Positions 6,467 to 51,900 of a stretch of DNA of 64,000 nucleotides are shown here, one piece after another; position 1 is the first letter of the stretch; each line of letters begins with the position of its first letter. Location: positions 49,251-113,250 of IMG/VR virus record IMGVR_UViG_2718218135_000001. The stretch is one strand, 5' to 3'. Origin of the DNA: a virus. Lineage: Duplodnaviria; Heunggongvirae; Uroviricota; Caudoviricetes. The notes under the pieces are model-generated. The model searched no databases. It was not told the origin of the DNA and saw nothing but the letters and a program-made list of their open reading frames with translations. Both the position numbers and the translations under genes were made by a program.

Positions 6467-9400
6467 ATGTCACAAAACGTAGAGTTTGTCCTGTCGCTGG
6501 AAGACAAGCAGTTTACAGCGTCAATCGACCGGGCGGGTAAGCTACTTACCAGATTCGGGGAGCAGGCCACAAAACCAGCTCAGAAAATTAACAATCTGGA
6601 ACGCTCGTTGGGTTCGGTCTCCCGCATCATCGGCGTTCTGGAGTCCAAGCTCGATGCCACGGCAGACAAACTACAGGATGTAGCTGCCGGCTTCGAACTT
6701 GTGTCTGATGTTTCGCGCAAGACGCGAGGCAACATTACCAGCCTCAATTCAGGTCTCAAAACCCTGATTGAGCGCGTCGACACAACCACCTCTTCCGTTA
6801 ATAAGCTCACCACATCGTTGCGCAAGGTTCAGTCTGAACTCAATGAGTTTTCCGATTGGGCAACGTTCGCTGGTAAGAGCGCCAGCCGCTTCGGTACGGA
6901 GGTAAAAGAAGCCTCTACATCTGTGAGTGGTATGAATACGCGCCTTAACACCACGACGAAGCGTCTCAGTAATTGGGGTGTCACAACGAACCAGGCTGCC
7001 GAGGGGCTGAAGAAAGTCCGCGATCAGATGGATGCGGTGATTGGCCGCCAGCAGCTGATCAGCAAGCCGGTGCGTGTGCGCACCAGCGGCTACGGTGAGG
7101 GCGGTGGTAATGGCGGTGGCGGTCGACACAGCGGTTCCTATGGCCACGGCGGGCGCGGTGCTGAAAATGGCGTGTTCTCTGGTCTGCGCGGCAATATTTT
7201 CCTGCTGGGCGAGATTGGTGATGCGGCAAGAACGGTAACTGACATCCTGTTCGGCTGGCAGAAGCCAATCGTCGAAGCTGCCTCCAAAATGGAGCGTATG
7301 TGCGTCATGTTGCGCGGGCTGAACAAGGACAAGGCCAACCCTGGCAAAGCAGCCGCAGAGGATATGCAGTACATCGTGGATATGGCGCAAAACGCCCCGT
7401 TTGCGATGCAGGCGCTGACCGATTCCTTCGTTAAATTCCGCTCGGCAGGTCTCGATCCTACTGACGGATCGCTGAAAGCATTGGTGGACTCTGTTGCACG
7501 CTTCGGCGGCGATAGTGAACTGCTAAAACGCGCAGCAGTGGCCGTCCAGCAGATGTCCGGTAAGGGCGTCGTTTCGATGGAAGAACTGCGTCAGCAATTA
7601 GGTGAAGCCGTTCCTAACGCGATGAAAGCGATGGCAGACGCTGCCGGCATTACTATGGGGGAACTGACCAAAGCAGTCTCCAGCGGTACTGTGGAAGCGA
7701 AACAGGCGTTATCGCTGATGTTCGTTGGTCTGCGTGCAGAGAACGAAAACGCCGCCAAAGACATGATGCAAACCTACACCGGTGCGCTGGCGCAACTACA
7801 AACCTCCTTTACGTTGTTCGCCGATCGTGTCGGTCAGACGGGCTATCTGGATTCTCTCTCTAAGGGAATGAAAGAACTAGCCTCCATCATGAATAGCGCA
7901 GAAGGGATTTCGTTTGCTAATTCTTTAGGTTCGGGGTTAACGACGGCAATCGATGGGTTGCGTCAGCTTGCTCAATGGTTAGCAAAGAACCAAGAGCTGG
8001 TAATTAATCTTGGTAAGGTCGTGGCCGCGATGGTTGCGTTCAAACTGATGCGAGCAGGGATCATGGGGGTAGTTGGCGCTGGGAGCCAGATGGTTAGCAC
8101 CTTTGCCACGATGGCGACCGCCATACAGACTCCATTTAACCTCGGCGCTACAGCAGTAACTCGATTCAATCGTGCGGCACGTATGGGGCTGGCTCCGATC
8201 CCCTCTCTTATTTTCGCCATCCGTGGGGCGATTACGGGGCTTAAAGGCGCTTTTGCTGGATTAACGGCGTTCATTGCAGCAAATCCAATTGGCGCTGCGT
8301 TTACCGTGGCAACCGTGGCCGTGGCCGGGTTGATCACGTATATGACCATGCTTCGCAGCGAAACGTCAAAAGTCGTTGACGAGATTAGGAAAATACCAGA
8401 GGCGATGACGGCGGCCAAACGTGCACAAATGGCGGAGTATAAAGCGCGTCTTGAGCAACAAATCACGCAAAAGGAACAAGAGTTAAAATCTGGCGAAAAG
8501 GTGGTTTATGGGCCGGGTATGGCCGGAACTGCAGTAAAGATTAATCAGGATGAACGTAAGCGTATAGAAAATGAGCTAAATGACCTTCGTGAGAAACGCG
8601 ATAAAACTACTGGGGCAATTGAACGCGGAGACACTGCTGTAGCCAAACGTCTTGCAAAAGATGCGGCAGAATCACAGATAGAGAAAATACGGGAAGAGAA
8701 TAGAGACTTTGCGGCAACATTCGCTAAAGCTCGTCAAGAGGCTCTGGAGAAGATCCAAAAAATCAATGATGACGATTCACTTTCTGATGACGAAAAGAAC
8801 AAACTATTGGCACCGTTACGTGAAACGGTAAACAAAAGCTATCTGGAGCCTGCGCAAAAACTGGTTGATTCACTTTCTTCTCGTAAGAATGCGACCGAGA
8901 AGCAAATCGCGACTCTTAATGATCAGCTTGAAAAAGCCAAAAAAGATGGCAATACCGAGCAGATCCAGAAACTGCAAGGCAGTATTCGTGGTTATCAGGA
9001 GCATTTGGAAGCCGTTGCTCAGGAGCTGACTCAGGCAGAGTTCGAGAGAGATAATGCGGCCAAAACTGGTAAGGGCGTAATGTCAAACCAGGGGACTGTT
9101 CTTGGGTTAGGTACAACTGATAAAGCTGCTCAGAAGGCGCTGGCGCAATATATGCGAAACCAGATGGATTCTGCGACTTATCAGCGTACTTTGCCTGACG
9201 GCACTCCGATGATGGACTTCGAAGGTAAGCCGATTATTGGGCCTAAACAACTCAAGACGCAGCTTAATTTGCAGAAAGCATCCAGTGCCAGCTCTCTGGA
9301 GAAAATGAGCGATGCGGAACGCGCCGCAGCCATTGCAGCGCTGACCAAAGCGCGCGAACAGGATGCCGCAGCAGCGGAAAAAGCCGGGCGACGTACAGCC

Positions 9401-12987: not shown

Positions 12988-13568
12988 TTCATGTGCAACT
13001 TGGCGGCCCTATGGCCAAACATTTTGGTCGTCACTGGCATTTGAAAGTTCGCAACACCAAGCAGGCTCTGGATTTGATTGAGGCTAATCGCCCCGGATTC
13101 AAAGCCTGGATGAAGCGAAATCTCAAAACCTACGACAAATACCACATCCAGATCACCAATAAACAGGGCTACAAGTGGTCTGTGGACGAGAGTGAATATC
13201 AGATGATGGGGCAGTCTGACAACATAGCCAAAATCCGCATTACCCCTGTTCCGCGAGGAAGCGGCGGTTCTGCTTTTGGGTGGTTTCAGACGGTAGTAGG
13301 AGCCGCTTTGTTGGTTGTATCGGCGGTAATGATGCCTGCTTTAGCACCTCTCGGTTTGTCACTGATGATGGGCGGTATAGCGCAAATCATATCTCCGCAA
13401 GCCACTAACGAAAGTGTAAGACAGGCAGATAACTCCGACTCGTTCTATTTCGACGGCCCTCAAAATACAGAAAACCAGGGCAACCCAGTACAACTTATCT
13501 ATGGCGAGGAAATTCTGGTTGGCTCACAGGTTGTGAGTTCTTCAATCACGATTGACCAGCTAATGTAA
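12975..13568 (+). CDS. tail assembly protein (gpI-like)
   Basis: 197-aa ORF with hydrophobic segment, between K-like and J-like genes; GTG start. Confidence 0.45.
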   Translation: MSELVHVQLGGPMAKHFGRHWHLKVRNTKQALDLIEANRPGFKAWMKRNLKTYDKYHIQITNKQGYKWSVDESEYQMMGQSDNIAKIRITPVPRGSGGSAFGWFQTVVGAALLVVSAVMMPALAPLGLSLMMGGIAQIISPQATNESVRQADNSDSFYFDGPQNTENQGNPVQLIYGEEILVGSQVVSSSITIDQLM

Positions 13569-24614: not shown

Positions 24615-24648
24615 ATACGACAATAATTCACGCAAAGGAAACTCACCA

Positions 24649-25314
24649 ATGACCAAGATCATTGTGGTTGGCGGCACAAAAGGCGGCCCAGGCAAATCTA
24701 CCGTTGCCCAGCAAATTGCGGTATGTCTCAAAGTTAAAAAGAAAAAGAAGGTTCACGTCACCGATATCGATATCCAGCGCACCACGACCAGCTGGTGTGA
24801 AGACCGTCGCCAGAACGAAGATCTTGAACTGATCCCGTTCGCTTATGTGCAGGACGACATCGTCAAACATCTTAAATCGCTTCAGGGGCGAACTGATTAT
24901 GTAGTGGTAGATGCTGGTGGCTTTGACTCCGAAATTCAGCGTCTGGCGATGCTTATGGCTGATGTAATCATCATCCCGCTGCGCCCTAAACGTCGTGATT
25001 TGAAATCTCTGCGTGATATCGACCCGATTATCGACAACGTTCGCAATGTGAACGAGAAAGTTAAGATCCGCGCGGTAATAAACCAGTGTCCGTCATTGCC
25101 TTCCCAGGTATCACGTATTCTGGCCGCGAAGGAAATTGTCGAAACTTTCGGCATCGAGGCTGCGCCGGTCAATCTGTACAACCGTAACGTTTATGACGAT
25201 GCGGAAGAGGCAGGTCGTTCTATCTTTGAAATGACTGGCGCTGAACGCGATAAGAAGGCAGAAGCCGAGTTCGAAGAGTTTGTAGATTACATCTTGAGTC
25301 TGGAGGAAGAATAA
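24649..25314 (+). CDS. ParA/ParF-type partition ATPase
   Basis: Deviant Walker A GGTKGGPGKST at N-terminus; 221 aa; followed by small basic protein. Confidence 0.7.
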   Translation: MTKIIVVGGTKGGPGKSTVAQQIAVCLKVKKKKKVHVTDIDIQRTTTSWCEDRRQNEDLELIPFAYVQDDIVKHLKSLQGRTDYVVVDAGGFDSEIQRLAMLMADVIIIPLRPKRRDLKSLRDIDPIIDNVRNVNEKVKIRAVINQCPSLPSQVSRILAAKEIVETFGIEAAPVNLYNRNVYDDAEEAGRSIFEMTGAERDKKAEAEFEEFVDYILSLEEE

Positions 25315-37687: not shown

Positions 37688-38500
37688 ATGAAAGAAGAAT
37701 TTCAGAAGTTAGTCTGCGACATCATCGACAAATCCGGCGTAGAAATTGATACAGAAGAGCGCCAGAAGATTATCGACGAGGCGATCCAAACTGCGCTGGA
37801 GCATATCGCCACGTCCGTGAGCGCCGCACCTCTTTCGGAAGGCTCGAAATACATGCAGGTCTGGGTTCGTTTTGGAGAGTCCCCGGAGTTGCCAGGTGTT
37901 AAGCAGAAACGCGCGGCACTTGTGGCGTTCTCTCGCGAGATGAAAGACGCAACGGTCGAAGTGAGTACCGGTGCATGGTACGACGGTCGCATTGTCTACA
38001 CTAATCAGACTGTCTACACCAATCAGACTGTGTGCGATGAAGGTGAACGGTTTGAGGATATTGTCGACGCAACTCTTCGCACGCTCAAAGTCAGAGCTGG
38101 TGTGGCGGATGACCCGTCCATCGCGGCGTTCCTGAGTATTGTCGAACAGTCTGAAGTTACCGAGCGCGTAACAGATCTGACAACTCCACCTGGTTTGCTG
38201 GAATTGGTGGTCAGTGGCGATATCAAAAAAGCCGTTGAGCGCATTCGTGAGGTGGAATACGGCATTATCTGCGATATGTGCCGCAGCGACTTAGACCTGG
38301 TGCGCATCATTGTCGACGCGGGTCAGGCATGTGACGGAGTACTCGCCAGTTTTGCAGGGCAAGTGGCTCGTCTGGCCAACGAATTACCCATGATTAAACA
38401 AGAAGCCAAATCCTACGCCGTTCATCGTACCAACGATTTACTGGACCCATACCGGTTCGAAGCTGCTCAGGACAAAATGACTGGCTGGGCGACCTGGTAA
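37688..38500 (+). CDS. hypothetical protein
   Basis: 270-aa acidic ORF with AGGAG RBS; contains 18-bp tandem duplication (VYTNQT x2). Confidence 0.4.
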   Translation: MKEEFQKLVCDIIDKSGVEIDTEERQKIIDEAIQTALEHIATSVSAAPLSEGSKYMQVWVRFGESPELPGVKQKRAALVAFSREMKDATVEVSTGAWYDGRIVYTNQTVYTNQTVCDEGERFEDIVDATLRTLKVRAGVADDPSIAAFLSIVEQSEVTERVTDLTTPPGLLELVVSGDIKKAVERIREVEYGIICDMCRSDLDLVRIIVDAGQACDGVLASFAGQVARLANELPMIKQEAKSYAVHRTNDLLDPYRFEAAQDKMTGWATW

Positions 38501-38517
38501 GCCTCGATAAAACATTT

Positions 38518-38539
38518 AGCCCCCTCGTGGGGCTTCTTT
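38518..38539 (+). terminator. terminator-like hairpin
   Basis: AGCCCC-TCGT-GGGGCT followed by TCTTT. Confidence 0.5.
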
Positions 38540-38550
38540 AAACTGCGATT

Positions 38551-38570
38551 AATAAGTAAGTACAAGATTA
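38551..38570. promoter_or_regulatory. conserved intergenic motif A copy (AATAAGTAAGTACAAGATTA)
   Basis: TAAGTAAGTA core; between terminator and next start. Confidence 0.45.
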
Positions 38571-38581
38571 CGGTTAGAAGC

Positions 38582-39058
38582 ATGTCCACAAGAACAGATT
38601 TGTCGAAAATCCCGTCTATCTCCGGAAACAACGGTTATTCGCTGCGCTGCCCGGAAGTGAAGCTCAACGGCCATGAGGCTCATTGCAGCTATACAGTCTG
38701 CCAACACACGATCCTCGCCTATAAAGAAAAACGTCTCCCGGCTACATCGTTCCAGTCCTGCGCTGCGGCTATTGCTGCTGGTAAATGTCAGGCACTGAAA
38801 ATGATGGTCGAAGAGATCCGCAAAGACGAACAGCTCTACTTCATCGATATGTCTTCACTTATCAAAGAAGTGGAAGAGCAAAACGACCATGCCAGAACGC
38901 TCCCCCGGAAGCGAAACACCGCGACAATTGACAGTCTTATTCATCGCACGAAGAAAACAGAACCTGCTAAATCCGAAACCAAGCCCACCGATTCACTGGC
39001 GCCGGTCACTGACGTGTACGCGGCACTCATTGAAGAAGCAACCAAAGAAAACACATGA
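38582..39058 (+). CDS. hypothetical Cys-rich protein
   Basis: 158-aa ORF; several Cys/His (CPEVKLNGHEAHCSYTVCQH). Confidence 0.35.
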   Translation: MSTRTDLSKIPSISGNNGYSLRCPEVKLNGHEAHCSYTVCQHTILAYKEKRLPATSFQSCAAAIAAGKCQALKMMVEEIRKDEQLYFIDMSSLIKEVEEQNDHARTLPRKRNTATIDSLIHRTKKTEPAKSETKPTDSLAPVTDVYAALIEEATKENT

Positions 39059-39092
39059 AAACTCCCGAGCGACCGATGGAGGTTAAACACTA

Positions 39093-40415
39093 ATGGAAAA
39101 ACTGATCGCCCTAAAGCACAAGCTGGATGCTATTAAAACGATGGGAACCAACGCCAAGAAAGAGGCGCTGGCCAATCTGGATGAATTTGAACAGAGCATG
39201 GTCTCGCTAATGCTCAATCCATTCATTCGATTCGGTGTGAAGAAGTACAAAGTGGCCGAGCCACTCGATACTTCCGTACCCAGCGACCAGAAGGTAGTAG
39301 ATCTGCTGGAGAAGCTGGCAGCGCGCGAACTGACCGGGAACATCGCTATTGCTGCTGTCGAATCACTCGTTGCCTCGATGTGCGCTGACGGGCAGGACGT
39401 GTTTCGTCGCTTCCTGCTGAAAGATCCGAAAGCCGGTGTCGGCATCAGCCTGTGCAACAAGGTGTTCGAAAACCCAATTCCGAAGTTTGAGGTACAGCTG
39501 GCGTCTCCGTACAAGGAGAAAGGCGACAAATACCCATTTAAACCAAATCCAAAGGCCAAGTGGCCAATGATCGGCAGTCTCAAACTCGATGGTCTCCGGG
39601 TTATCTGCGAAGTCATCGTGGACGAGGGTGAGGTCAATTTCCTGACGCGCACCGGCAATCCGATTACGTCACTCGATCACCTTAAACCAGCCATGCTGGA
39701 GCGGAGCAGACTCTCCGGCTTCAATCACATCTTCTTCGATGGAGAGGGCACTGCAGGTACATTCAACCAGTCAGTGTCGGCGCTTCGTAAGAAGAACGTG
39801 AAAGCCATTGGTGCCGTTTACCACATTTTCGATTTCTTCTTACCGGAGTGGCGTGCTCAAGCAAAAAGCAAAGAGTACCTGAAGACCGGTATGAAGCTGA
39901 AAGAGCGCCTGGCTATGCTGGTGGCGTTGTTCCGCAACACTTGCGTGGAAGATTATGCGCAAGATATCCACCTTCATCCGTTCTACATCATCCATAGCCA
40001 CGAAGATTTCATCGAACGTTTCATGAAGCGACTGGACGAGAATGAAGAGGGAGAGATGGGCAAAGATCCGGATTCAGTTTACGAGTTCAAACGTACCCGC
40101 AGCTGGTGGAAGCTGAAAGACGAGGATTCAGAAGACGGTGAAATCATCGACTTCGAGCCTGGCGATCCGGATTCTGGATTTGCGCATACGCTAGGCAAGA
40201 TAGTGATTCGTCTGGAGAACGGCGTCATCGTTCGTGCCAGCGGTATCAAGCATAAATACCTGGATGAAATCTGGAACAATCAGGAGAAGTATCGTGGACG
40301 CATCGTTGAGGTTCACTGCCATGAGAAAACGCCAGATGGTAGCTTGCGTCATCCACGTCTGAAGTGGCCTAAATGTCTTCGAGATACCGAAGATCGTATT
40401 GGAGATAAAGAATGA
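39093..40415 (+). CDS. ATP-dependent DNA ligase
   Basis: Motif I KLDGLR, motif III FFDGE, motif V-like WWKLK; GGAGG RBS. Confidence 0.65.
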   Translation: MEKLIALKHKLDAIKTMGTNAKKEALANLDEFEQSMVSLMLNPFIRFGVKKYKVAEPLDTSVPSDQKVVDLLEKLAARELTGNIAIAAVESLVASMCADGQDVFRRFLLKDPKAGVGISLCNKVFENPIPKFEVQLASPYKEKGDKYPFKPNPKAKWPMIGSLKLDGLRVICEVIVDEGEVNFLTRTGNPITSLDHLKPAMLERSRLSGFNHIFFDGEGTAGTFNQSVSALRKKNVKAIGAVYHIFDFFLPEWRAQAKSKEYLKTGMKLKERLAMLVALFRNTCVEDYAQDIHLHPFYIIHSHEDFIERFMKRLDENEEGEMGKDPDSVYEFKRTRSWWKLKDEDSEDGEIIDFEPGDPDSGFAHTLGKIVIRLENGVIVRASGIKHKYLDEIWNNQEKYRGRIVEVHCHEKTPDGSLRHPRLKWPKCLRDTEDRIGDKE

Positions 40416-40591
40416 TGCTCGGCTGGATGTTTGTATTTTTAGTCGTCGGCATTGTTATCGGAAGTCTGGTTATGTCCAGCTGTATCCACGATTACGTAAA
40501 AGCCGGTGTCATGCAAAGGCGAGGTCGTATTTATCGCATAGTAGATATCACGGACACACTGAAGGAGATTAAGGATGAGCATGTTAAGTAA
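40412..40591 (+). CDS. small membrane protein (59 aa)
   Basis: ATG overlaps ligase stop; one TM helix; C-terminal RIYRIV motif shared with ORF at 40787. Confidence 0.25.
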   Translation: MMLGWMFVFLVVGIVIGSLVMSSCIHDYVKAGVMQRRGRIYRIVDITDTLKEIKDEHVK

Positions 40592-40787
40592 ACGAGAGAA
40601 GGAAACCCTGCGTGAAATCAGCAAGTGGAAGGAGTTCTACGCCAACTGGAAGCCGAAGACCAGAGCCAAACTGGAGCGCATGAATCTTGTCGCCAACGTT
40701 TCTCCAAAGGGATGTATTGAGAACTATCAACTGACTGAAAAAGGTTATTTGTTGTTGCAGCAATTGACTGAGGCGGGGGCATACTGA
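40575..40787 (+). CDS. small hypothetical protein (70 aa)
   Basis: GAAGGAG RBS; overlapping small-gene array. Confidence 0.3.
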   Translation: MSMLSKREKETLREISKWKEFYANWKPKTRAKLERMNLVANVSPKGCIENYQLTEKGYLLLQQLTEAGAY

Positions 40788-40939
40788 TGATTCCATACAT
40801 CATTTTATCATTCACTGGTGGCGTGGGCCTCGGCCTCGCAATCTGCCGCGCCCTGGTCCAGCAGGAACTGAAAACCAAAACACTTCGTGTCGGTAAGCGT
40901 GTGTATCGGGTTGTTCACGAGACGGGAGTGCGAAAATGA
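40787..40939 (+). CDS. small membrane protein (50 aa), paralog-like of 40412 ORF
   Basis: Starts ATGATTCCATAC; TM helix then RVYRVV motif; stop overlaps next start. Confidence 0.2.
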   Translation: MIPYIILSFTGGVGLGLAICRALVQQELKTKTLRVGKRVYRVVHETGVRK

Positions 40940-41241
40940 GCAATTTGACTTCCTTCGACTGGTGGCTGGCAACCTACCTTGTTGCGGCCGGCTTCGGATT
41001 TGCCTTTTACGTTGGTCAGTTAATCGTAAAGCTACTGCTGATAAGATTCGCCAGCGATAAACGCATAGACGACGGTCTGTGGCGTCTGGGGCCCCTGTTA
41101 GAGACGCATTACGGCGAACTCAAGGAAAACGAAACTATCACTATTCAAGCGAAGCGTTTTACCGCCATCATCACGAGAACTTCGGAACAAAAGGGGAGCC
41201 TGATCAAAAAGATAGCAACTAAACGCATCACAGATAGATAA
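40936..41241 (+). CDS. small membrane protein (101 aa)
   Basis: N-terminal TM helix (WWLATYLVAAGFGFAFYVGQLIV). Confidence 0.35.
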   Translation: MSNLTSFDWWLATYLVAAGFGFAFYVGQLIVKLLLIRFASDKRIDDGLWRLGPLLETHYGELKENETITIQAKRFTAIITRTSEQKGSLIKKIATKRITDR

Positions 41242-41258
41242 GTATTTACTTACCTATC
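41233..41258. promoter_or_regulatory. conserved intergenic motif A copy, extended palindrome (GATAGATAAGTATTTACTTACCTATC)
   Basis: 12-bp inverted arms with one mismatch; at the edge of the non-coding tRNA region. Confidence 0.5.
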
Positions 41259-41984
41259 TAATATGTATAAGATCACTTTGTTTTCGTTGAGATGCGACTG
41301 TTTGAACGTTAAATATAACTGCAAACGAAGATGCATACCTGGCAGTAGCCTAAGAAGCCAAACACCAGCGAGGTCAGTTTCCAGCCTCGTCACCAAAATG
41401 GGACACACTGAGCGAGTGTGATTGCAGAACGCAGAATAGGGCATATTGCACCATCCATGCCCTATTCAATGAAGTAACAGAATGGGCGGTTGGTTTCATC
41501 ATTCCATTCACCCATCCCGGTTTCAGCTGACCGTCCATTCTGTTACGTCATTTCCATTACTTATGTCGTTTATACTTGGGTTAAAAGCGGCGACGTAACC
41601 CGGCTGACTTGGTTAGTCAGCACATAACGTTGAGATCACTGATTTTTCTTAAAATCATACAGGCGATTCCACATAGCTGTAGCGACTGATCAATATGTTG
41701 GGTTGAACATTAATCGGTTCAGTGATCTCAACGTTGTGAAAGCAGGATTAATTAACCCTCTAGTGAAAACATTGTTGCCTTTATTGCCCCTGGCTTCACA
41801 ACATGTATGATTCCATACATCTAATAAGATCGAAGAATCTAACGGCAATCAACCACCGAGAAAGATTCCAGATCTTCGCTCATATGAGCGAGCCACATAC
41901 CTTGTCTGGCACTAACGTAAAGTGCAAGTTGCGGGAAAGTTTCTGGCTGCCTGGTTGTCCATAAGCTAGTACCGCCGCGAATAT

Positions 41985-42059
41985 GATGGTGTAGCTCAGT
42001 GGTAGAGCGGTTGACTGTTAATCAACTGGTCGGTGGTTCGAGTCCACCCACCATCGCCA
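41985..42059 (+). tRNA. tRNA-Asn (anticodon GTT)
   Basis: Cloverleaf by hand: acceptor GATGGTG/CACCATC, D-arm GCTC..GAGC, anticodon stem GTTGA/TCAAC with loop CTGTTAA, T-arm GGTGG-TTCGAGT-CCACC, discriminator G, CCA encoded; differs from E. coli tRNA-Asn as I recall it. Confidence 0.75.
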
Positions 42060-42213
42060 ACATAGCGCTGAACGGTTTGGATTCGCCACCACCGTCCGAA
42101 CGAAAGACTCCGCAAATGTCGCCAGACCGTTCAGCGCTGTGATAGACACGGCAGACGTTTTTTAACCATTGCTTCTAAGCATCGTAGCAACACTTTTTTC
42201 AGCGCAAAATCCA

Positions 42214-42235
42214 AAGGGGCTTCGGCCCCTTTTTG
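42214..42235 (+). terminator. rho-independent terminator
   Basis: AGGGGC-TTCG-GCCCCT followed by TTTTT. Confidence 0.6.
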
Positions 42236-42313
42236 CTATCAAGTCGCATATGCAACCAACTTTTTTTAGCTTATAGTTAAGTTCAGTAGTAGAATGCTAC
42301 GCTTCGTCGAGAA

Positions 42314-42829
42314 ATGACGATTATGGAGTCTATCGTGAAATTTAAAATCCAGCATTTGCAGGCAGCAGTGGCACTGGTTCTTGCCAGTATCCAGCCGCAA
42401 CCCAAAGCGGTTGCGTGTCAGCCTACGATTGTAGAACGGGTTTATGAGATGGGCGCTAGAGTCAACAAAACCGACATCAGTGATCTTACAGCTGCTCTCA
42501 ATGAATTGGCTAAAGAACTGCGTTCAAGCCGCGCTGAACTTGCTCGTTATGCTGACACTGACTTCTTTGCTGCTATCAAAGTAGCGGAAGAAATTAAGAA
42601 TCAAACTATTCATGTAGCCGGTATCGCAGAATCTTTTGTTTTGATGTTACCTGAAAAAGACGTCATCATGTCTTACGACAAAAACACTGTTGAGTTTGCG
42701 TTTTTTAAAGCTATTAAAATGGTCAGTATTGCGACCAAAAACTATCTCAATCTGATTGATCAGATTACACACACTTCTGTAGTGCGTGACTCTGGTGTCA
42801 ACCTTTTAGCCATGAACCATTCTAGCTGA
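42314..42829 (+). CDS. hypothetical protein
   Basis: 171-aa ORF after terminator; TAGAAT -10-like element upstream. Confidence 0.4.
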   Translation: MTIMESIVKFKIQHLQAAVALVLASIQPQPKAVACQPTIVERVYEMGARVNKTDISDLTAALNELAKELRSSRAELARYADTDFFAAIKVAEEIKNQTIHVAGIAESFVLMLPEKDVIMSYDKNTVEFAFFKAIKMVSIATKNYLNLIDQITHTSVVRDSGVNLLAMNHSS

Positions 42830-42997
42830 ACTTTAGCGATCGTCATCTTCTTCATCATTCTTTTTCTTCTAACAAATCATTCTCATCAATCTGGCTCAGA
42901 TGGCATTCCAAAGTTGGCGTTATTAGGCGCTTTTTACTATTTAGCGTTTAAGATGGTTTGTCTACATAATTTATTCAGAATTTACGTAAGCTATATA

Positions 42998-43030
42998 AAT
43001 GATTCCATACTTGTAAGGTATGGAATCATT
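42998..43030. repeat. perfect 13-bp inverted repeat (AATGATTCCATAC-N7-GTATGGAATCATT)
   Basis: Exact palindrome about 100 bp upstream of recombinase gene; ATGATTCCATAC core also at 40787 and 41807. Confidence 0.6.
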
Positions 43031-43128
43031 TTCAAAAACAGTCTATTTTACTGTTGATCATACAAAACTTAGGCCTAACATACTGTTTATAAATACAGTA
43101 AAAACAGGCTTCACTCAGTGAGTGGACT

Positions 43129-44232
43129 ATGAAAAACACTTTTGATAAAGCACGCGCAGCAGAAAACACCTCTAGAGAAGCCATCGAGTATCTCGAACGC
43201 GCTTCCGGTTTGTCAGCAGTGTCGACCACCAATTTCGACGGTGACATGTCGTTTTCTTCCGCATTCATGTTATTCACTCGCTTATCTTTGCTGATAACGA
43301 GACGTCGACCTGAAATAGCTGTTCATTGTATTTTGATACATGTAATGCCGCATATCTGTGAAGTAAAAGTAAGTGACATTAGTAGGGTTTTAGTCAACCA
43401 GCTGGTGAACCCATTAATACTTGAGGGCAAGATCGTCCAGGGCAGACGTGTGTTCTCGCTGATGAAGCAGTTTCTCAGTTGGTGTGCATTTCAGGGCTTA
43501 ATTGATACATCCCCATTGAACGATATGTCGCTTAACAGAGTAGCCGGTGGCGCGAAGCCCACGCCGCGCGAGCGCAAACTGACCGACGCAGAGGTCTGGG
43601 TCTTTTGGAATGTATGGGACTACTTCAACGTATGTGAGGGTACAAAGTGGGCGGCCAGATTATGCCTTGTAGCGGCCAGACGACCAGATGAAGTGCTCCG
43701 AGCTAAAAGATCAGAATTCAACCTCGAATATAATTTATGGAATCAAGGAACGAGGAATAAATCGGCTCGCCAGCACTCGTTACCATTAAGCCCGCTAATG
43801 CGCAAATGTGTTGAGGAGCTGATCAAATACGGAAAAGGCAGCCAGTGGCTTGTTCCTTCAAACAAGAAACAGGGTGAGGATGTGCCAATGTCTAAGGTGG
43901 CCATATCACAGGCGTTGAGAAGGATTTTAGAACGTCCAGAGTTGATGGAGCTTGAGCCATTTACTCCCCGAGATTTGCGTCGTACTGCGCGTAGTTACTT
44001 CCCCGCGTTAGGCATAAGTCAGGAGGTATCCCGCAAAATTATGAACCACAGTCTTGAGGGGATAGATCGAGTATACGATCGACACGATTATATAGACGAG
44101 ATGCGAGACGCCTTAAACAGTTTTTCGGCGTACATCGCATCAATCGTAGAGAAACAGGATTTAGAGGAGATAGATCATAAGTTCAAGGGAGATCGACTCG
44201 CTACTGAGCTAATCCGTGTAAATTTCTCATAG
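43129..44232 (+). CDS. tyrosine recombinase / integrase
   Basis: C-terminal catalytic region RDLRRTARSYF ... MNHSLEGIDRVYDRHDY (R..H..R..Y pattern). Confidence 0.65.
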   Translation: MKNTFDKARAAENTSREAIEYLERASGLSAVSTTNFDGDMSFSSAFMLFTRLSLLITRRRPEIAVHCILIHVMPHICEVKVSDISRVLVNQLVNPLILEGKIVQGRRVFSLMKQFLSWCAFQGLIDTSPLNDMSLNRVAGGAKPTPRERKLTDAEVWVFWNVWDYFNVCEGTKWAARLCLVAARRPDEVLRAKRSEFNLEYNLWNQGTRNKSARQHSLPLSPLMRKCVEELIKYGKGSQWLVPSNKKQGEDVPMSKVAISQALRRILERPELMELEPFTPRDLRRTARSYFPALGISQEVSRKIMNHSLEGIDRVYDRHDYIDEMRDALNSFSAYIASIVEKQDLEEIDHKFKGDRLATELIRVNFS

Positions 44233-44616
44233 CGACTTGATTGCCTCAACAACCCGCTCCGACGCACCACGTTGGTCACCGAAACGTCGACGGAAGGCTT
44301 CCAGAACTAGTTTTTCATCTTTAGTCAGAGGGGCTGTGCCTTCGTCGCGAAAAAACTCTAACAGCTCTGGATGACGCTCTTCCAGCACCATTAGCATCAA
44401 TCGGACCGAATCGGCATCCAATGCTTTAGCCAACGCTCTGACCTTGTCGATCGGAAGCGGGATTTTGCCGCTCTTGATAAGTGAAAGATTGTTAGGATTT
44501 TTATAGCCTGCTTCTTTCGCGATGGTCGCCTGGCTTTTCGGAGAAATCGCGATTAAAGCGTCAATGTAAGCAGCGTAGCGACCTACTTTAGCTTCTGTTA
44601 TTTCGTTGGTAGCCAT
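44227..44616 (-). CDS. HTH transcriptional regulator (candidate repressor)
   Basis: HTH-like QATIAKEAGYKNPNNLSLIKSGKIP; divergent from 45198 operon with motif B in the shared region. Confidence 0.45.
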   Translation of the reverse strand: MATNEITEAKVGRYAAYIDALIAISPKSQATIAKEAGYKNPNNLSLIKSGKIPLPIDKVRALAKALDADSVRLMLMVLEERHPELLEFFRDEGTAPLTKDEKLVLEAFRRRFGDQRGASERVVEAIKSL

Positions 44617-44872
44617 AATTATCAACCTGCGTGTTTTGATTTTATATGGTAAGTGCTTACTGATATTACATCAAAGGTTAGTGTTGTAAAGACTTATCTA
44701 TTTTTTTTCGTAGAGTTATTGACCGCAAAAGGCTTCATTAATAGACAACTATCTAAAAAACAACTCATTTAAGAACTTAAAACTAAGTTGTATTTGATAT
44801 ATAAGTATTCCGTATTGATACAATAGGTAGTAGTATTGCAAGGCATTTACGTGTTCAGTTGGATGATATGAA

Positions 44873-48937: not shown

Positions 48938-51900
48938 ATGAAGGCTCTGATGGTCAGAACTGACTTCTCCCTGGGAGAGTCAGCTCTAAAAGCAGAAAAC
49001 GCGGTGAAAATCGCGAGAGACGCTGGCTACACCGCTGTCATTTCCGCTGACAGCATGAACATTGCCAGTGTGATCCCCCTGCAGCGTGCCGCTGGCGACG
49101 ACATGGCGGTTATTTGTGGTGTTAAGCTGAATGTGGTCGACGATCCGACATACGAGCATCGCGCCCGCCTGGCGAAAGAGTCAGGAGGATGTATGGAATC
49201 ATTGGTGCGTGATCGAAGCTACTGCTTCACGGCACTGATAAAGAATGAGCAAGGTTATCGCGACGTGTGCGAACTGATGACCTTAGCCAACAAGCGCGAG
49301 CAATTCTACTTTGTTCCGCGTCTGGCACTTGACCAGCTGGCGGCCGCATATGCCAAAGGCAACATCATCCTGCTGACGTCCGACATTGGCAGTGTATTCC
49401 AGCGCCGGGACTTCGCAAAGATTATCGGGACGCTGGTGACAGCTGGAGGACGCGATAACTTCTACAGCGTGGTTTATCCGCACCCTACCCCATTCTACGA
49501 CCAGATTAACGTCCGGGCGATGAAAGTGGCGAGCGCACTGAAAATAGAGCCAGTGGCGTTCTATCCCGCTTATTACGAAGCGATCGACGACGCTGACATT
49601 AAAGACATTGCGCACATGGTTACGAACAACATCAAAATCGACCAGCCGCATCGTCTGCGCATCCCCCACCAGCGAGATAACGCTGTTAATGGTCGTCGCC
49701 ATCTCCTTGAAGCGCTGAAAGCCTTCTCCGTTCGCATGGGCGTACCGGTAACAGCTGCAATGGTCTCAACAACGCAGGACACCATTATTGAAGCCTGCAC
49801 ATGGCGCTGGCATGAACTGCCACCAGCACTGCCCAAGATGGCAGACGACGAGCCTGCAACGCTGATGAAGCTGGCTGTCGCGGGGCTACGCAAGCGTCTA
49901 ACTACTAAAGAGTTTGGCTACACACCACCGGCTTCTGAGCACCGAGTGTATGTTGAGCGACTGAAGTACGAAATGGACACACTGACCCGTCTGGGCTTCT
50001 GTGGCTACTTCCTGATGGTACGCGATCTGATGAATCACAGCCGTGAAACAGGAATACCGGTTGGGCCAGGTCGTGGTTCCTCTGCCGGTTCTCTGGTGGC
50101 GTGGTGCATAGGCATAACCAACGTCGATCCTATCCGTCACGGTCTTCTGTTTGAGCGTTTCATCAACCCTGAACGTCTTGACTTACCGGATGCGGATCTG
50201 GACTTCAGCCAGGCACGTCGTCATGAGGTGATCGAGTATCTGAATGAACACTATGGCGAAGATTACGTTGCCGGTATTCCAAACTTCACCTATCTGGGCG
50301 CCGCTTCTGCGCTGCGAGACACTGCGCGTATTTACGGTGTCGACGCTGCGGATATGTCGGTATCCAAAGAGTTCAAGAATCTGGAAGACGATAGCCTGTC
50401 TCTGGAAGAGCTGCGCGAGCAACTGGCCAGCCTGGACAAATACGCCACGAAAAACCCGGAAGCGTTCAAAGCGGCGTGTAAGCTGCAAAGCCTGATGCGT
50501 GGTTTTGGTCGTCACGCTGCGGGGATGATCGTCGCTGGCGTTCCACTGGTAGAGCGCACGCCCGTCGAGCTGCGTGGCAACGCTCGCTGTATTGCGTTCG
50601 ATAAACGTTACTGCGAGGCGATGGGGCTGATTAAGCTGGACGTTCTCGGTCTGGCAACGCTCGATCTGCTGGATAGCGCGAAACGCTACATCAAAGAGAG
50701 TACCGGGGAAGACATCAATCTCGATGCTATTCCACTGGACGATCGTAAGGTTCTGGATGGGTTCGCTGCAGGGTACACGCAGGGCGTATTCCAGCTGGAG
50801 TCCGGCCCCATGCGCAAGCTGCTTAAAGATCTGGGCGGTGGCATTGAGCCAATGAGCTTCAAAACCGTTGTCGCCACGACCGCACTCTTCCGACCTGGCC
50901 CGATCCAATCCGGCATGTTGGACGACTATGTCTCCGTGGCCAAAGGCTTCATGGCTCCACATTCAATTCATCCGCGTCTTGAGGAAGTCACCCGGGAGAC
51001 TAATGGTGTTTTGCTCTATCAGGAACAAATCATGCAAAGTTCCCGAGTACTTGCCGGGTTCTCTATGGCCGAAGCAGACGCTCTGCGTTCCGCTATCGGT
51101 AAAAAGAACATGGATAAGATGAAAGCGATCGGCAGCGATTTTGTAGAACGAGCACAAGCAGGCTGGGTGACACTGTCACTCAAAAATGGAGGTACTGTAG
51201 AGGTTCACAAACACGCAAAACTGGATTGCTCAGACGGTAAGCGTAGAAGCTACAGCGAGGCTATTAGTGACGGCATAGACTACGTGGAGATCGTCTCTGA
51301 ACAAGAAGGTCTCAGTAAGGAAAAAGCCCAAGAAATATGGGACGCCTTTGAGAAGTTCGGTGGATATGCCTTCAACAAATCACACAGTGTTGCTTATTCT
51401 TTAATCAGCTATCAGTCTATGTGGTTAAAGACACATTACCCTGCTGAGTTCTTCGCTGCTGCGCTCACCATTCTGGGCGAGGATAAGCACCAGGGGCTGG
51501 TTAAGGATGCGCTGACCTATGGCATTCGCGTATTGCCACCAGACGTTAACGTGTCATCTAACCGAATTGAGATCCGCACGCTGGAAGACGGCAGTCAGGT
51601 TCTGTATGCACCATTCTCTGCTGTGAAAGGCTGCTCTGAGAATGGTTGCCAGGCCATCATGAGAGCGCGTGAGAAAGTTGGCGGCAAATTCGAGTCACTT
51701 GAGCAATTTGAGGAAGCGGTCGAGAAGCGTGCATGTAACAGCCGGGTACGCGAATCACTGCAAAAAGTCGGTGCGTTCGCATCGATTGAGTCTGGCAGTC
51801 TGCCAGCGACAGATCCGGAACGGCTGCGCGACCAGGCAGAGTTGATGGGTAATCTGGTGATCGACGCTGTAAAAGCCTCTCGACCGTTCGAGATGAACCC

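What the first reader, a model, noticed from the sequence alone, without database searches (positions are those of the whole stretch)
37688..41241. Block of unknown genes around the ligase, including paralogous mini membrane proteins and ATGATTCCATAC-initiated ORFs
Immediately after the IS scar lie two uncharacterised proteins (270 aa with an 18-bp tandem duplication; 158 aa Cys/His-rich), an ATP-dependent ligase, then four overlapping small ORFs (59, 70, 50 and 101 aa). Two of these are single-TM proteins sharing a C-terminal R(I/V)YR(I/V)V motif. Arrays of tiny overlapping genes next to replication genes are typical hiding places for anti-defence, superinfection-exclusion or host-takeover factors.
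Basis: partly seen in the sequence, partly recalled or inferred. Interest (0 to 1): 0.6.

Follow-up and report, generated by a model that had tools for sequence, protein, structure and literature searches.

The report
Orphan genes beside phage-plasmid ligase
The block is the conserved but uncharacterised tail of the DNA-replication module of an SSU5/pHCM2-type phage-plasmid of E. coli; its four tiny genes are real, and the repeated ATGATTCCATAC is a conserved DNA site, not a marker of gene starts.

Summary
All seven ORFs exist. The 18-bp duplication, the IS remnants and the shared R(I/V)YR(I/V)V motif are real.

The window is an E. coli SSU5/pHCM2-like phage-plasmid. It is 100% identical to pCUVET18-789.1 and 90.7% identical to phage SSU5. 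The block recurs in more than 570 plasmids.

The four small ORFs evolve under purifying selection (dN/dS 0.07-0.32). Each has a Shine-Dalgarno sequence and overlaps its neighbour stop-to-start. Three are predicted single-pass inner-membrane proteins whose tails face the cytoplasm.

ORF50 and ORF101 are the conserved core pair. ORF59 looks like a later copy of ORF50. None of the orphan genes matches Pfam, PADLOC or PDB. Their homologues in phage Cyrano are silent in lysogens, so they are lytic-cycle genes. That argues against prophage-expressed exclusion. Their function remains inferred only.

ATGATTCCATAC starts only one real gene. It is a nucleotide-invariant 12-mer with five copies on the plasmid. 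Two copies form a dyad with a variable 7-bp spacer, about 45 or 100 bp upstream of a tyrosine integrase gene.

Just outside the finding lies an undescribed, strongly covarying structured RNA of about 520 nt, upstream of tRNA-Asn.

The parts
36041..37519 (.). IS scar: truncated IS2 (tnpB 36041-36856 and tnpA C-terminal remnant 36904-36996, minus strand) plus an IS3-family orfA fragment (37217-37519, plus strand)
   Evidence: NCBIfam: IS2 TnpB E 6e-161 covering profile positions 33-301; IS2 TnpA positions 93-121; transpos_IS3 positions 1-86. SSU5 has a different gene here, SSU5_041.
37624..37647 (+). Palindromic element ATAATAAGTAGATACTTACTTATT (core TAAGTA-NN-TACTTA) upstream of ORF270; candidate promoter or operator
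   Evidence: Nine hits with at most 1 mismatch in the window against 0.07 expected, all intergenic. Conserved upstream of the ORF270 homologues in SSU5 and Klebsiella plasmids.
37688..38500 (+). ORF270 (phrog_4248), an orphan protein with an alpha/beta N-terminal part and a helical C-terminal part
   Evidence: PHROG E 1e-140. Family found only in SSU5-like elements of Enterobacterales. AlphaFold2 pLDDT 84.6, pTM 0.72. No significant fold match.
37993..38031 (+). 18-bp tandem duplication (2.2 copies) adding VYTNQT in frame
   Evidence: TRF score 71. Absent from the 264-aa homologues. Falls in the model loop at residues 103-108, pLDDT below 50.
38582..39058 (+). ORF158 (phrog_5055): conserved N-terminal domain with invariant C23, C40, H42 and C69, a variable basic linker, and a conserved acidic C-terminal tail
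   Evidence: The AlphaFold2 model is poor, pLDDT 44.5.
39093..40415 (+). ATP-dependent DNA ligase, 440 aa
   Evidence: Pfam PF01068 47.2 bits against cut-off 26.2. phrog_114 E 6e-124. KLDG at K164. 84-98% amino-acid identity across lineages.
40415..40591 (+). ORF59 (58 aa from the second ATG; phrog_4381): N-terminal transmembrane helix and a basic tail with RRGRIYRIV
   Evidence: dN/dS 0.13-0.17. Kyte-Doolittle 19-residue maximum 2.57. Start-codon evidence. Absent from 5 of 22 loci examined.
40575..40787 (+). ORF70 (phrog_4054): small soluble basic protein, possibly a winged helix (unproven)
   Evidence: dN/dS 0.08-0.09 where measurable. AAGGAG Shine-Dalgarno. No Pfam or PDB match.
40787..40939 (+). 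ORF50 (phrog_6302): N-terminal transmembrane helix and a tail with GKRVYRVV. Its first 15 nt are the invariant ATGATTCCATACATC.
   Evidence: dN/dS 0.13-0.32. Present in the distant lineage L034. Not called by PGAP in the identical RefSeq plasmid.
40936..41241 (+). ORF101 (phrog_4507): N-terminal transmembrane helix and a cytoplasmic domain of about 65 aa. RefSeq labels it 'C-type natriuretic protein'.
   Evidence: dN/dS 0.07-0.13. Only 19 cluster representatives among 1.84 billion proteins. An ORF101-like gene follows the ORF50-like gene in L034.
40787..40801 (+). Copy 1 of the 12-mer ATGATTCCATAC (15-mer with ATC)
   Evidence: Exact in 9 of 9 loci retrieved independently of the motif, at about 71-90% flanking nucleotide identity.
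41235..41272 (+). Palindrome AGATAAGTATTTACTTACCTATCT overlapping a promoter-like TTTACT-17-TAAGAT
   Evidence: Conserved in all lineages aligned.
41275..41800 (+). Candidate structured non-coding RNA of about 520 nt (outside the finding, directly downstream)
   Evidence: More conserved than the flanking genes. 112 pairs, 99.4% of cells paired against 32-48% in slid controls; 13 pairs with compensatory changes, reached by 0 of 500 shuffles. Minimum free energy z = -7.3. No Rfam family.
41807..41821 (+). Copy 2 of the 12-mer, at the 3' end of the RNA element and upstream of tRNA-Asn
   Evidence: The SSU5 copy has a single change, CCG.
41985..42059 (+). tRNA-Asn (GTT)
   Evidence: ARAGORN. Rfam 76.2 bits.
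42999..43029 (.). Dyad ATGATTCCATAC-ttgtaag-GTATGGAATCAT, 100 bp upstream of the integrase start
   Evidence: Found in 100 IMG/VR contigs. In 97 the integrase homologue (52-100% identity) starts 45-101 bp downstream; the other 3 loci end too close to the dyad to test. At least 10 different spacers. Left flank hypervariable.
43083..43098 (+). LexA-box-like CTGT-N8-ACAG overlapping a promoter-like TTGATC-16-TAACAT (TAATAT in most lineages) in front of the integrase gene
   Evidence: The only such match in the window. Conserved in most lineages.
43129..44232 (+). Tyrosine integrase, 367 aa
   Evidence: Pfam Phage_integrase 36.2 bits against 27.1. phrog_1. Absent from SSU5 itself.
49191..49202 (-). 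Copy 5 of the 12-mer, antisense inside dnaE, where the plus strand encodes G-C-M-E-S-L
   Evidence: Exact in SSU5 and in other lineages despite synonymous changes in the flanking codons.

Best explanation
Identity (shown). The block is the conserved distal part of the lytic DNA-replication module of an SSU5/pHCM2/pMT1-type phage-plasmid. The module runs helicase, primase, this block, tRNA, CobT/CobS-like genes, then Pol III alpha.

Transcription units (inferred from sequence). ORF270 looks like its own unit. A TAAGTA-NN-TACTTA palindrome lies upstream and a hairpin downstream. ORF158, the ligase, ORF59, ORF70, ORF50 and ORF101 form one chain of short gaps and stop/start overlaps, each gene with its own Shine-Dalgarno sequence. 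This suggests co-transcription and, for the four overlapping junctions downstream of the ligase, translational coupling.

The small ORFs (shown). All four are genuine protein genes. ORF59, ORF50 and ORF101 each have one N-terminal hydrophobic helix followed by a lysine/arginine-rich tail. The positive-inside rule therefore places the tails in the cytoplasm (inferred).

Evolution (shown for gene content, inferred for the duplication). ORF50 plus ORF101 is the core pair, kept even in a lineage whose integrase is only 62% identical. ORF59 is an accessory copy of ORF50. ORF70 is an accessory small basic protein.

Mechanism (inferred, not shown). These genes act in the lytic cycle. The membrane pair probably works at the inner membrane during phage DNA replication or host takeover. 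One model is tethering or organising replication proteins or DNA through the basic G(K/R)R-x-Y-(K/R)-x-x tail, as phi29 p16.7 and p1 do.

The 12-mer. ATGATTCCATAC is not a coding signature. It is a 12-bp recognition site for a sequence-specific DNA-binding protein. It occurs as a dyad in the integrase control region and as three single copies extended to 15 nt (…ATC).
For: Identity. 100% to NZ_CP115313.1 and 90.7% to SSU5. 572 plasmids match by megablast and 776 by blastn. Synteny appears.

Coding. dN/dS is 0.07-0.32 with synonymous sites near saturation. Each product gives a full-length PHROG hit. Shine-Dalgarno sequences and overlaps are shown.

Membrane prediction. The 19-residue hydropathy maxima are 2.57, 1.83 and 1.83, and the tails are positively charged.

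Core versus accessory. Presence patterns for ORF59, ORF70, ORF50 and ORF101 among 22 loci are 1111 x16, 0111 x4, 1100 x1 and 0011 x1. Lineage L034 has the ligase followed by an ORF50-like and an ORF101-like gene only.

Paralogy. hhalign gives E 1.3e-4, and the motif is unique to these two ORFs in the window.

Lytic timing. CYRAN_35-39 read 5-9 normalised counts in LB lysogens, close to that table's floor of about 5 (the same value recurs for many silent genes). The repressor reads 96 and CYRAN_34, the ORF270 homologue, 44.

12-mer. Five copies on the whole 113.7-kb plasmid, all within 8.4 kb. It is invariant across lineages at four homologous places. The dyad sits next to the integrase in 97 of 100 contigs, with variable spacers.
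Against: No experiment or homology links any of the six orphan proteins to a function. Pfam, NCBIfam, PADLOC and PDB sequence searches are empty. The fold searches of ORF270 give nothing significant.

The lysogen RNA-seq comes from a relative (Cyrano, 42-91% protein identity), not from this plasmid. It is one condition set.

Membrane topology is predicted from hydropathy and charge only.

The phi29 analogy rests on size, position and topology alone.

Paralogy support is modest: 54% hhalign probability on alignments of only 6-7 sequences.

The protein that binds the 12-mer is unidentified.
Confidence: 0.55

Rival explanations
1. One reading: the small membrane proteins, and perhaps ORF270 and ORF158, are superinfection-exclusion, anti-defence or host-takeover factors.
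For: They are small, membrane-anchored and lineage-restricted. Gene content varies between lineages, as is typical of accessory conflict genes. ORF270 diverges much faster than its neighbours, 42-48% identity against 84-91% for the ligase. Its Cyrano homologue is transcribed in lysogens and rises in macrophages.
Against: There are no PADLOC matches. The Cyrano homologues of ORF70, ORF50 and ORF101 are at the RNA-seq floor in lysogens, which does not fit exclusion by the resident element. The predicted tails face the cytoplasm, unlike exclusion proteins that act in the periplasm (inference). Strong purifying selection and conservation of ORF50 and ORF101 into distant lineages look more like a housekeeping phage function than an arms-race gene.
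Confidence: 0.2
2. ORF59 and ORF50 are membrane-damaging peptides. They could be Hok-like type I toxins, or holin/antiholin-like timers used for plasmid addiction or lysis control.
For: They are 50-58 aa, with one N-terminal hydrophobic helix. A cysteine at the helix end is invariant in most lineages.
Against: Pfam gives no Hok_Gef or holin hit even at E up to 1. They sit inside a translationally coupled operon with the ligase rather than behind their own promoter with an antisense RNA. Lysis genes lie elsewhere in relatives, as holin, endolysin and spanins CYRAN_22-25. The cysteine is missing in L034.
Confidence: 0.08
3. About the 12-mer: the dyad is the core recombination site of the adjacent tyrosine integrase. 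It would be a lox/FRT/att-like site with 12-bp arms and a 7-bp crossover region, used for multimer resolution or genome cyclisation. The single copies would be half-sites or relics.
For: The geometry is 12-7-12. The arms are invariant in the four independently retrieved loci plus the window, and at least 10 spacers are seen. The site is tightly linked to the integrase gene, 97 of 100 contigs at 45-101 bp, even where the integrase is only about 61% identical. The DNA left of the dyad is hypervariable cargo and the right side is conserved. SSU5 lacks both integrase and dyad, and it is the only genome seen with a mutated single copy.
Against: No recombination product was observed. The single copies lie kilobases away, share an extra ATC that the dyad arms lack (89 of 93), and persist in integrase-less SSU5 and pMT1. 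The arm invariance in the 100 contigs follows from the search pattern itself. Only the four BLAST-retrieved loci that include the integrase region, plus the window, are independent evidence.
Confidence: 0.35
4. About the 12-mer: it is the operator of a phage-plasmid regulator. The model is the dispersed asymmetric C1 operators of P1, with dimer binding at the dyad and monomer binding at the single sites.
For: The single asymmetric sites plus one dyad resemble the P1 operator layout (my own knowledge). Copies 1 and 2 overlap -10-like hexamers GATGAT and TATGAT of promoter-like matches. The dyad lies about 24 bp upstream of the predicted integrase promoter. A helix-turn-helix 'putative repressor' gene converges on the integrase gene.
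Against: There are only five copies, all within 8.4 kb. One copy is antisense inside dnaE. The promoter-like matches are no more frequent than in shuffled sequence. In Cyrano the genes flanking the dyad are expressed in lysogens, integrase at 50 and CYRAN_43 at 7084.
Confidence: 0.35
5. The small ORFs are annotation artefacts, that is, chance open frames.
For: PGAP does not call ORF50 in the identical RefSeq plasmid.
Against: dN/dS is well below 1 in all four. The frames are intact and the lengths conserved across lineages with about 71-75% nucleotide identity. Each has its own PHROG family.
Confidence: 0.02

Closest known systems
Salmonella phage SSU5 genes SSU5_042-048, with their orthologues on pHCM2-like, pMT1 and Cyrano elements (PHROGs 4248, 5055, 114, 4381, 4054, 6302, 4507)
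   Same: Same order, same overlaps, and 82-98% protein identity to SSU5. All except the ligase are annotated as hypothetical.
   Different: This copy has the 6-aa VYTNQT duplication in ORF270. Upstream it carries an IS2/IS3 scar, a YehD-type fimbrial operon and phd/doc where SSU5 has SSU5_041. An integrase island lies after tRNA-Asn that SSU5 lacks.
phi29 p16.7 and p1, small early membrane proteins that organise phage DNA replication at the membrane (my own knowledge)
   Same: Small proteins with an N-terminal transmembrane anchor and a cytoplasmic tail, encoded with replication genes and expressed in the lytic cycle.
   Different: No sequence or fold relationship was tested or found. The tails here are only about 30-65 aa. 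DNA or protein binding is not shown. This is a 'works like' proposal only.
Phage superinfection-exclusion membrane proteins (T4 Imm and Sp, HK97 gp15, P22 SieA; my own knowledge)
   Same: Small inner-membrane proteins of phages.
   Different: Prophage-encoded ones must be expressed in the lysogen, and the Cyrano homologues are not. No homology was found.
Cre/loxP of phage-plasmid P1, FLP/FRT and XerCD/dif (for the dyad)
   Same: Two perfect inverted arms around a 6-8-bp spacer, next to a tyrosine recombinase gene on a plasmid prophage.
   Different: The integrase's nearest non-plasmid relatives are lambdoid integrases at 24-30% identity, not Cre or Xer. Recombination is not shown. Extra single copies have no counterpart in lox or FRT.
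Large structured phage-associated RNAs next to tRNA genes (GOLLD, ROOL; T4 stable RNAs C and D) and the ColE1 RNA II primer (for the neighbouring RNA element; my own knowledge)
   Same: Several hundred nucleotides, many conserved hairpins, phage context, directly upstream of a tRNA and inside a replication module.
   Different: No Rfam model, including GOLLD and ROOL, matches even with permissive filters. Expression and function are unknown.

Membership tests
ATP-dependent DNA ligase (nucleotidyltransferase superfamily) | Adenylation domain with motif I KxDG | tested here: met
   PF01068 47.2 bits against cut-off 26.2. KLDG at K164.
ATP-dependent DNA ligase (nucleotidyltransferase superfamily) | C-terminal OB-fold domain | tested here: inconclusive
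   PF04679 and PF17879 score only 12-13 bits, below their cut-offs.
SSU5-like phage-plasmid orphan families (PHROGs 4248, 5055, 4381, 4054, 6302, 4507) | Full-length profile match | tested here: met
   E values from 1e-140 to 6e-33 over whole profiles.
SSU5-like phage-plasmid orphan families (PHROGs 4248, 5055, 4381, 4054, 6302, 4507) | Conserved synteny downstream of primase and around the ligase | tested here: met
Known anti-phage defence proteins (PADLOC) | Match to any defence-system model | tested here: not met
   No hit below E 0.05 for any of the seven proteins.
Prophage-expressed superinfection exclusion | Transcription in the lysogenic (plasmid) state | tested here: not met
   CYRAN_37-39 read 5.0-7.6 normalised counts, close to the apparent table floor of about 5, in LF82 lysogens. 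The data come from a relative, not this plasmid.
Hok/Gef type I toxins | Pfam Hok_Gef signature and an antisense-RNA locus organisation | tested here: not met
   No PF01848 hit at E up to 1. The genes are embedded in a coupled operon.
Bacterial lipoproteins (for ORF59 and ORF50) | Lipobox [LVI][ASTVI][GAS]C after a positively charged n-region | tested here: not met
   The sequences are VMSSC and LAIC. There is no basic N-terminus, and the -1 residue is Ile in ORF50 (read).
Winged-helix transcription factors (for ORF70) | Significant match to a helix-turn-helix or winged-helix family or structure | tested here: not met
   No Pfam hit. Best PDB sequence hits have E of at least 0.19, with HxlR-type PA1607 at 0.56. 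The profile search finds only orthologues.
Sigma factors (for the ORF270 C-terminal helices) | Region 2 sequence signature | tested here: not met
   No Sigma70_r2 hit in any of 20 family members at E up to 10. PDB hmmsearch is empty.
Sigma factors (for the ORF270 C-terminal helices) | Domain-2-like fold | tested here: inconclusive
Tyrosine-recombinase core site (lox/FRT/att core) | Inverted arms flanking a 6-8-bp spacer | tested here: met
   12-7-12 perfect dyad.
Tyrosine-recombinase core site (lox/FRT/att core) | Linkage to a tyrosine recombinase gene | tested here: met
   97 of 100 contigs, 45-101 bp upstream of the integrase gene.
Tyrosine-recombinase core site (lox/FRT/att core) | Demonstrated strand exchange within the spacer | not testable with these tools
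   Only indirect evidence exists: hypervariable DNA on one side of the dyad.
Rfam RNA families (for the 41275-41800 element) | Covariance-model match at or near the gathering score | tested here: not met
   Best hits are 14-20 bits against gathering scores of 35-100.

The most novel reading that the evidence does not exclude
The invariant ATGATTCCATAC(ATC) would be the recognition site of a phage-plasmid-encoded site-specific protein, most simply the adjacent integrase. The dyad would work as a lox-like resolution or cassette-exchange site at the edge of the hypervariable cargo region. The single copies would couple this protein to the start of the conserved membrane-protein pair ORF50-ORF101, to the 3' end of a previously undescribed structured RNA of about 520 nt, and to dnaE. 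The 'unknown block' would then be part of a new regulatory and recombination circuit of SSU5-type phage-plasmids, with ORF50/ORF101 (and its duplicate ORF59) as a new family of membrane-anchored lytic-cycle factors.
Probability: 0.25. Interest if true: 0.65.

Novelty: new member of a known kind. Interest (0 to 1): 0.38.

Why it matters
SSU5/pHCM2/pMT1-type phage-plasmids are common in clinical E. coli, Klebsiella, Salmonella and Yersinia pestis. They carry resistance and virulence cargo. This one carries a YehD-type fimbrial operon, and pMT1 carries the F1 capsule genes at the equivalent place. Their lytic replication and lysogeny control are almost unstudied.

This work shows that the tiny genes are real and lytic-phase. 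It narrows them to a core membrane pair. It defines the cis elements around them: the 12-mer and its dyad, the TAAGTA-NN-TACTTA palindrome, a LexA box before the integrase gene, and a large structured RNA. Together these give concrete handles for genetics. As it stands, the gene block itself is an ordinary, already sequenced set of orphan genes whose function is still unknown.

Tried and rejected
1. Pfam, NCBIfam and PADLOC on all seven proteins. Only the ligase was named.

2. AlphaFold2 of ORF158. pLDDT was 44.5, so the model was unusable.

3. Fold searches of the good ORF270 model.
- Foldseek against PDB and BFVD found nothing at E up to 0.001.
- The afdb50 library was unavailable.

4. ORF70 as a winged helix. 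There was no significant PDB or Pfam match.

5. Wider homologue searches for ORF270, ORF158, ORF70 and ORF101. All stay within SSU5-like elements of Enterobacterales.

6. The 12-mer as a phage promoter. Rejected because the dyad would place two promoters face to face. Also, the genes downstream of copy 1 are silent while those around the dyad are expressed in Cyrano.

7. The 12-mer as a peptide signature (MIPYI). Rejected because in dnaE it encodes GCMESL on the other strand, and because it is invariant at synonymous sites.

8. An integron-like cassette array bounded by the 12-mer. Rejected because no extra copies lie between cargo genes.

9. Y. pestis proteogenomics and sRNA catalogues.
- The pMT1 orthologues of the small proteins were not found among the reported peptides.
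- sR082 and sR083 map elsewhere on pMT1.

10. Literature search for an SSU5 integrase or resolution function. Nothing relevant was found.

Full report
WHAT THE WINDOW IS

The 3.7-kb stretch is 100% identical to E. coli plasmid pCUVET18-789.1 (NZ_CP115313.1). It is 90.7% identical over 99% of its length to Salmonella phage SSU5. Megablast finds it in 572 PLSDB plasmids and blastn finds its 3' kilobase in 776. The hosts are Escherichia, Klebsiella, Enterobacter, Salmonella, Yersinia pestis (pMT1), Citrobacter and Cronobacter, and nearly all the plasmids are non-mobilisable.

The wider window holds tail, lysis, partition and replication genes in SSU5 order. The element is therefore an SSU5/pHCM2-type phage-plasmid.

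CHECK OF THE OBSERVATION

TRF confirms the 18-bp duplication at 37993-38031. It adds VYTNQT in frame. SSU5 and most E. coli homologues are 264 aa and lack it.

The 'IS scar' is a truncated IS2 plus an IS3-family orfA fragment. With a YehD-type fimbrial operon and phd/doc, it replaces SSU5_041.

The ligase passes the Pfam threshold and has KLDG at K164. 'Cys/His-rich' is a mild overstatement for ORF158, which has 5 Cys and 5 His. Even so, C23, C40, H42 and C69 are invariant.

The shared motif R[IVL]YR[IV][IV] occurs only in these two ORFs among 79,320 residues of six-frame stop-free sequence.

ARE THE SMALL ORFS GENES?

Yes. I fetched ten related loci. They include SSU5, pMT1, phage Cyrano, two other E. 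coli lineages at about 74% nucleotide identity and four Klebsiella lineages at about 71%. The four frames are intact, with conserved lengths and 70-92% protein identity.

Nei-Gojobori dN/dS against the window is:
- ORF59: 0.13-0.17
- ORF70: 0.08-0.09 (synonymous sites are saturated in the more distant pairs)
- ORF50: 0.13-0.32
- ORF101: 0.07-0.13

Each gene has a Shine-Dalgarno-like sequence and overlaps its neighbour by 1, 17, 1 and 4 nt. The first ATG of ORF59 is CTG in SSU5 and pMT1, so translation probably starts at 40415. Each product is a full-length member of its own PHROG of unknown function. PGAP misses ORF50 in the identical RefSeq record and labels ORF101 'C-type natriuretic protein'. 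That label has no support here.

WHAT THE PROTEINS LOOK LIKE

ORF59, ORF50 and ORF101 each have one strongly hydrophobic N-terminal segment and a tail rich in Lys and Arg. By the positive-inside rule I infer N-out/C-in bitopic inner-membrane proteins. They lack lipoboxes and give no Hok or holin match.

The tails of ORF59 and ORF50 carry G(R/K)R(I/V/L)YR(I/V)(I/V), invariant in position within each family. Profile-profile comparison of the two families gives E 1.3e-4 and 54% probability over 39 columns.

In a distant lineage (L034, integrase 62% identical) the ligase is followed directly by one 52-aa ORF50-like protein (MIPYI…GRRVYKVV) and a 96-aa ORF101-like protein. ORF59 and ORF70 are absent. 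Among 22 loci with a full ligase, the presence patterns for ORF59, ORF70, ORF50 and ORF101 are 1111 x16, 0111 x4, 1100 x1 and 0011 x1. So ORF50 plus ORF101 is the core pair, ORF59 is best read as a later duplicate, and ORF70 is accessory.

ORF70 is small and basic. Its pattern …NYQLT.KG..LL.QL is reminiscent of a winged helix, and the Cyrano annotators called it a putative regulator. No Pfam, PDB or wider-homologue evidence supports this.

ORF158 did not model, at pLDDT 44.5. All four families searched are confined to SSU5-like elements.

WHEN ARE THEY EXPRESSED?

The only data I found are for E. coli LF82, which carries the related phage-plasmid Cyrano (PMC9928086). In overnight LB lysogens:
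- CYRAN_35-39 (homologues of ORF158, the ligase, ORF70, ORF50 and ORF101) read 5.0-8.8 normalised counts, close to that table's floor of about 5. The ORF59 homologue is not annotated in Cyrano and was not measured.
- The putative repressor reads 96 and the integrase 50.
- CYRAN_34, the ORF270 homologue, reads 44 and rises in macrophages.

Cyrano is induced 39-fold by ciprofloxacin. I conclude by inference from a relative that the ligase operon, including the small genes, belongs to the lytic programme, and that ORF270 is a separate unit. Sequence agrees. A TAAGTA-NN-TACTTA palindrome precedes ORF270 and a hairpin follows it.

This timing argues against exclusion expressed by the resident plasmid. 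It leaves lytic-phase roles open. My preferred but unproven mechanism is a membrane-anchored accessory function in phage DNA replication or host takeover, by analogy with phi29 p16.7 and p1.

THE ATGATTCCATAC MOTIF

It occurs five times exactly in the window, against 0.34 expected with one mismatch allowed. It occurs nowhere else on the 113.7-kb plasmid.

In loci retrieved by BLAST, independently of the motif, it is exact at the homologous places in every lineage:
- the start of ORF50;
- a non-coding site upstream of tRNA-Asn (SSU5 alone has one change);
- antisense in dnaE, where the sense strand reads GCMESL;
- a perfect inverted pair upstream of the integrase gene.

Flanking codons and spacers vary freely, so the constraint is on DNA (or RNA) sequence, not on protein. 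Single copies extend to ATGATTCCATACATC in 89 of 93 cases.

A scan of IMG/VR for the dyad found 100 contigs. In 97 an integrase homologue (52-100% identical) starts 45-101 bp downstream, and the other three loci are cut at that end. At least ten different AT-rich 7-bp spacers occur. DNA to the left of the dyad is unrelated among at least 15 groups, while the right side is conserved.

SSU5 lacks both integrase and dyad. The geometry and linkage fit a tyrosine-recombinase core site. The dispersed asymmetric single copies fit an operator set like that of P1 C1. I cannot decide between them and give each about 0.35.

OUTSIDE THE FINDING

The 'intergenic' 41242-41984 is more conserved than the genes. 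On 17 diverse sequences, RNAalifold gives 112 pairs. 99.4% of cells are paired, against 32-48% when partners are slid. Thirteen pairs show compensatory changes, a count reached by 0 of 500 shuffles. There are many invariant or alternating G-U pairs that make sense only on the plus strand.

The single sequence folds with z = -7.3. No Rfam family matches, even with permissive filters. pMT1 keeps the first 517 nt next to caf1R. The element is not one of the published pMT1 sRNAs. It starts at a promoter-like TTTACT-17-TAAGAT embedded in the palindrome and ends at copy 2 of the 12-mer.

A LexA-box-like CTGT-N8-ACAG, the only one in the window, overlaps a promoter-like site before the integrase gene.

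VERDICT

The gene block is an ordinary, already sequenced set of lineage-specific orphan genes of a well-known phage-plasmid group, so its interest is moderate to low. The conserved 12-mer and the neighbouring structured RNA are the parts that deserve experiments.

Noticed in passing
window 41275-41800 (+), with promoter-like 41245-41272: A structured RNA candidate of about 520 nt between ORF101 and tRNA-Asn. It is more conserved than the flanking genes. 112 pairs are 99.4% paired, 13 pairs show compensatory changes, and z = -7.3. No Rfam match. Present in SSU5, Cyrano, Klebsiella plasmids and (truncated) pMT1. In one-genome-per-species representatives, a 26-mer from it hits only Buttiauxella and Kluyvera contigs.
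   Followed up: partly
window 4921, 11426, 18240, 22002, 26744/26748, 37628, 41239, 47445 (weaker copies at 1816-1837, 44650, 53589, 58367): A palindromic element TAAGTA-NN-TAC(T/C)TA. There are 9 hits with at most 1 mismatch against 0.07 expected, all in intergenic gaps of the tail, lysis and replication modules. Several are followed by terminator-like hairpins. It is conserved at the same places in SSU5 and Klebsiella plasmids. It is a candidate phage promoter/operator or regulatory cassette.
   Followed up: partly
window 43054-43098: A promoter-like TTGATC-16-TAACAT overlapped by a LexA-box-like CTGT-N8-ACAG, about 30 bp before the integrase start and conserved in most lineages. The integrase gene converges on a helix-turn-helix 'putative repressor' gene (44227-44625, minus strand). 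This suggests an SOS-driven switch, in line with ciprofloxacin induction of Cyrano.
   Followed up: partly
window 42060-42998; L004, L005, L009, L010: The segment between tRNA-Asn and the dyad is a hypervariable cargo slot. Here it holds a 171-aa orphan ORF (42314-42829). Relatives carry extra tRNAs, Gp49, glutaredoxin, PhoH, Abi genes, toxin-antitoxin pairs or colicin immunity.
   Followed up: partly
window 30308-37519: An insertion relative to SSU5: a phd/doc toxin-antitoxin pair, a four-gene YehD-type chaperone-usher fimbrial operon (minus strand) and IS2/IS3 remnants. pMT1 carries the caf1 (F1 capsule) chaperone-usher operon downstream of the same block.
   Followed up: partly
L002 (NZ_CP115313.1) 13188-13340, equal to window 40787-40939: PGAP does not annotate ORF50 in the identical RefSeq plasmid. 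It names ORF101 'C-type natriuretic protein', a label with no support from Pfam or NCBIfam.
   Followed up: yes
L010 (Cyrano) 8249-8803, minus strand: CYRAN_43, a hypothetical gene just left of the dyad, is by far the most highly transcribed Cyrano gene in lysogens (7084 normalised counts). The window has no homologue at that place.
   Followed up: no
L003 (pMT1), L006, L007, L008, L009: Natural variants of the block. IS100 truncates the pMT1 ligase. CP100028 lacks ORF59. pINF319.5 lacks most of the ligase plus ORF59 and ORF70, with the deletion ending about 20 bp before the 12-mer. In one Klebsiella plasmid the rear part of ORF50 and all of ORF101 are replaced. In another, ORF101 is truncated.
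   Followed up: partly
window 24637-24717 (-): ARAGORN calls a tRNA-Lys (TTT) on the minus strand that overlaps the start of a plus-strand ORF (24649-25314). I did not examine it.
   Followed up: no
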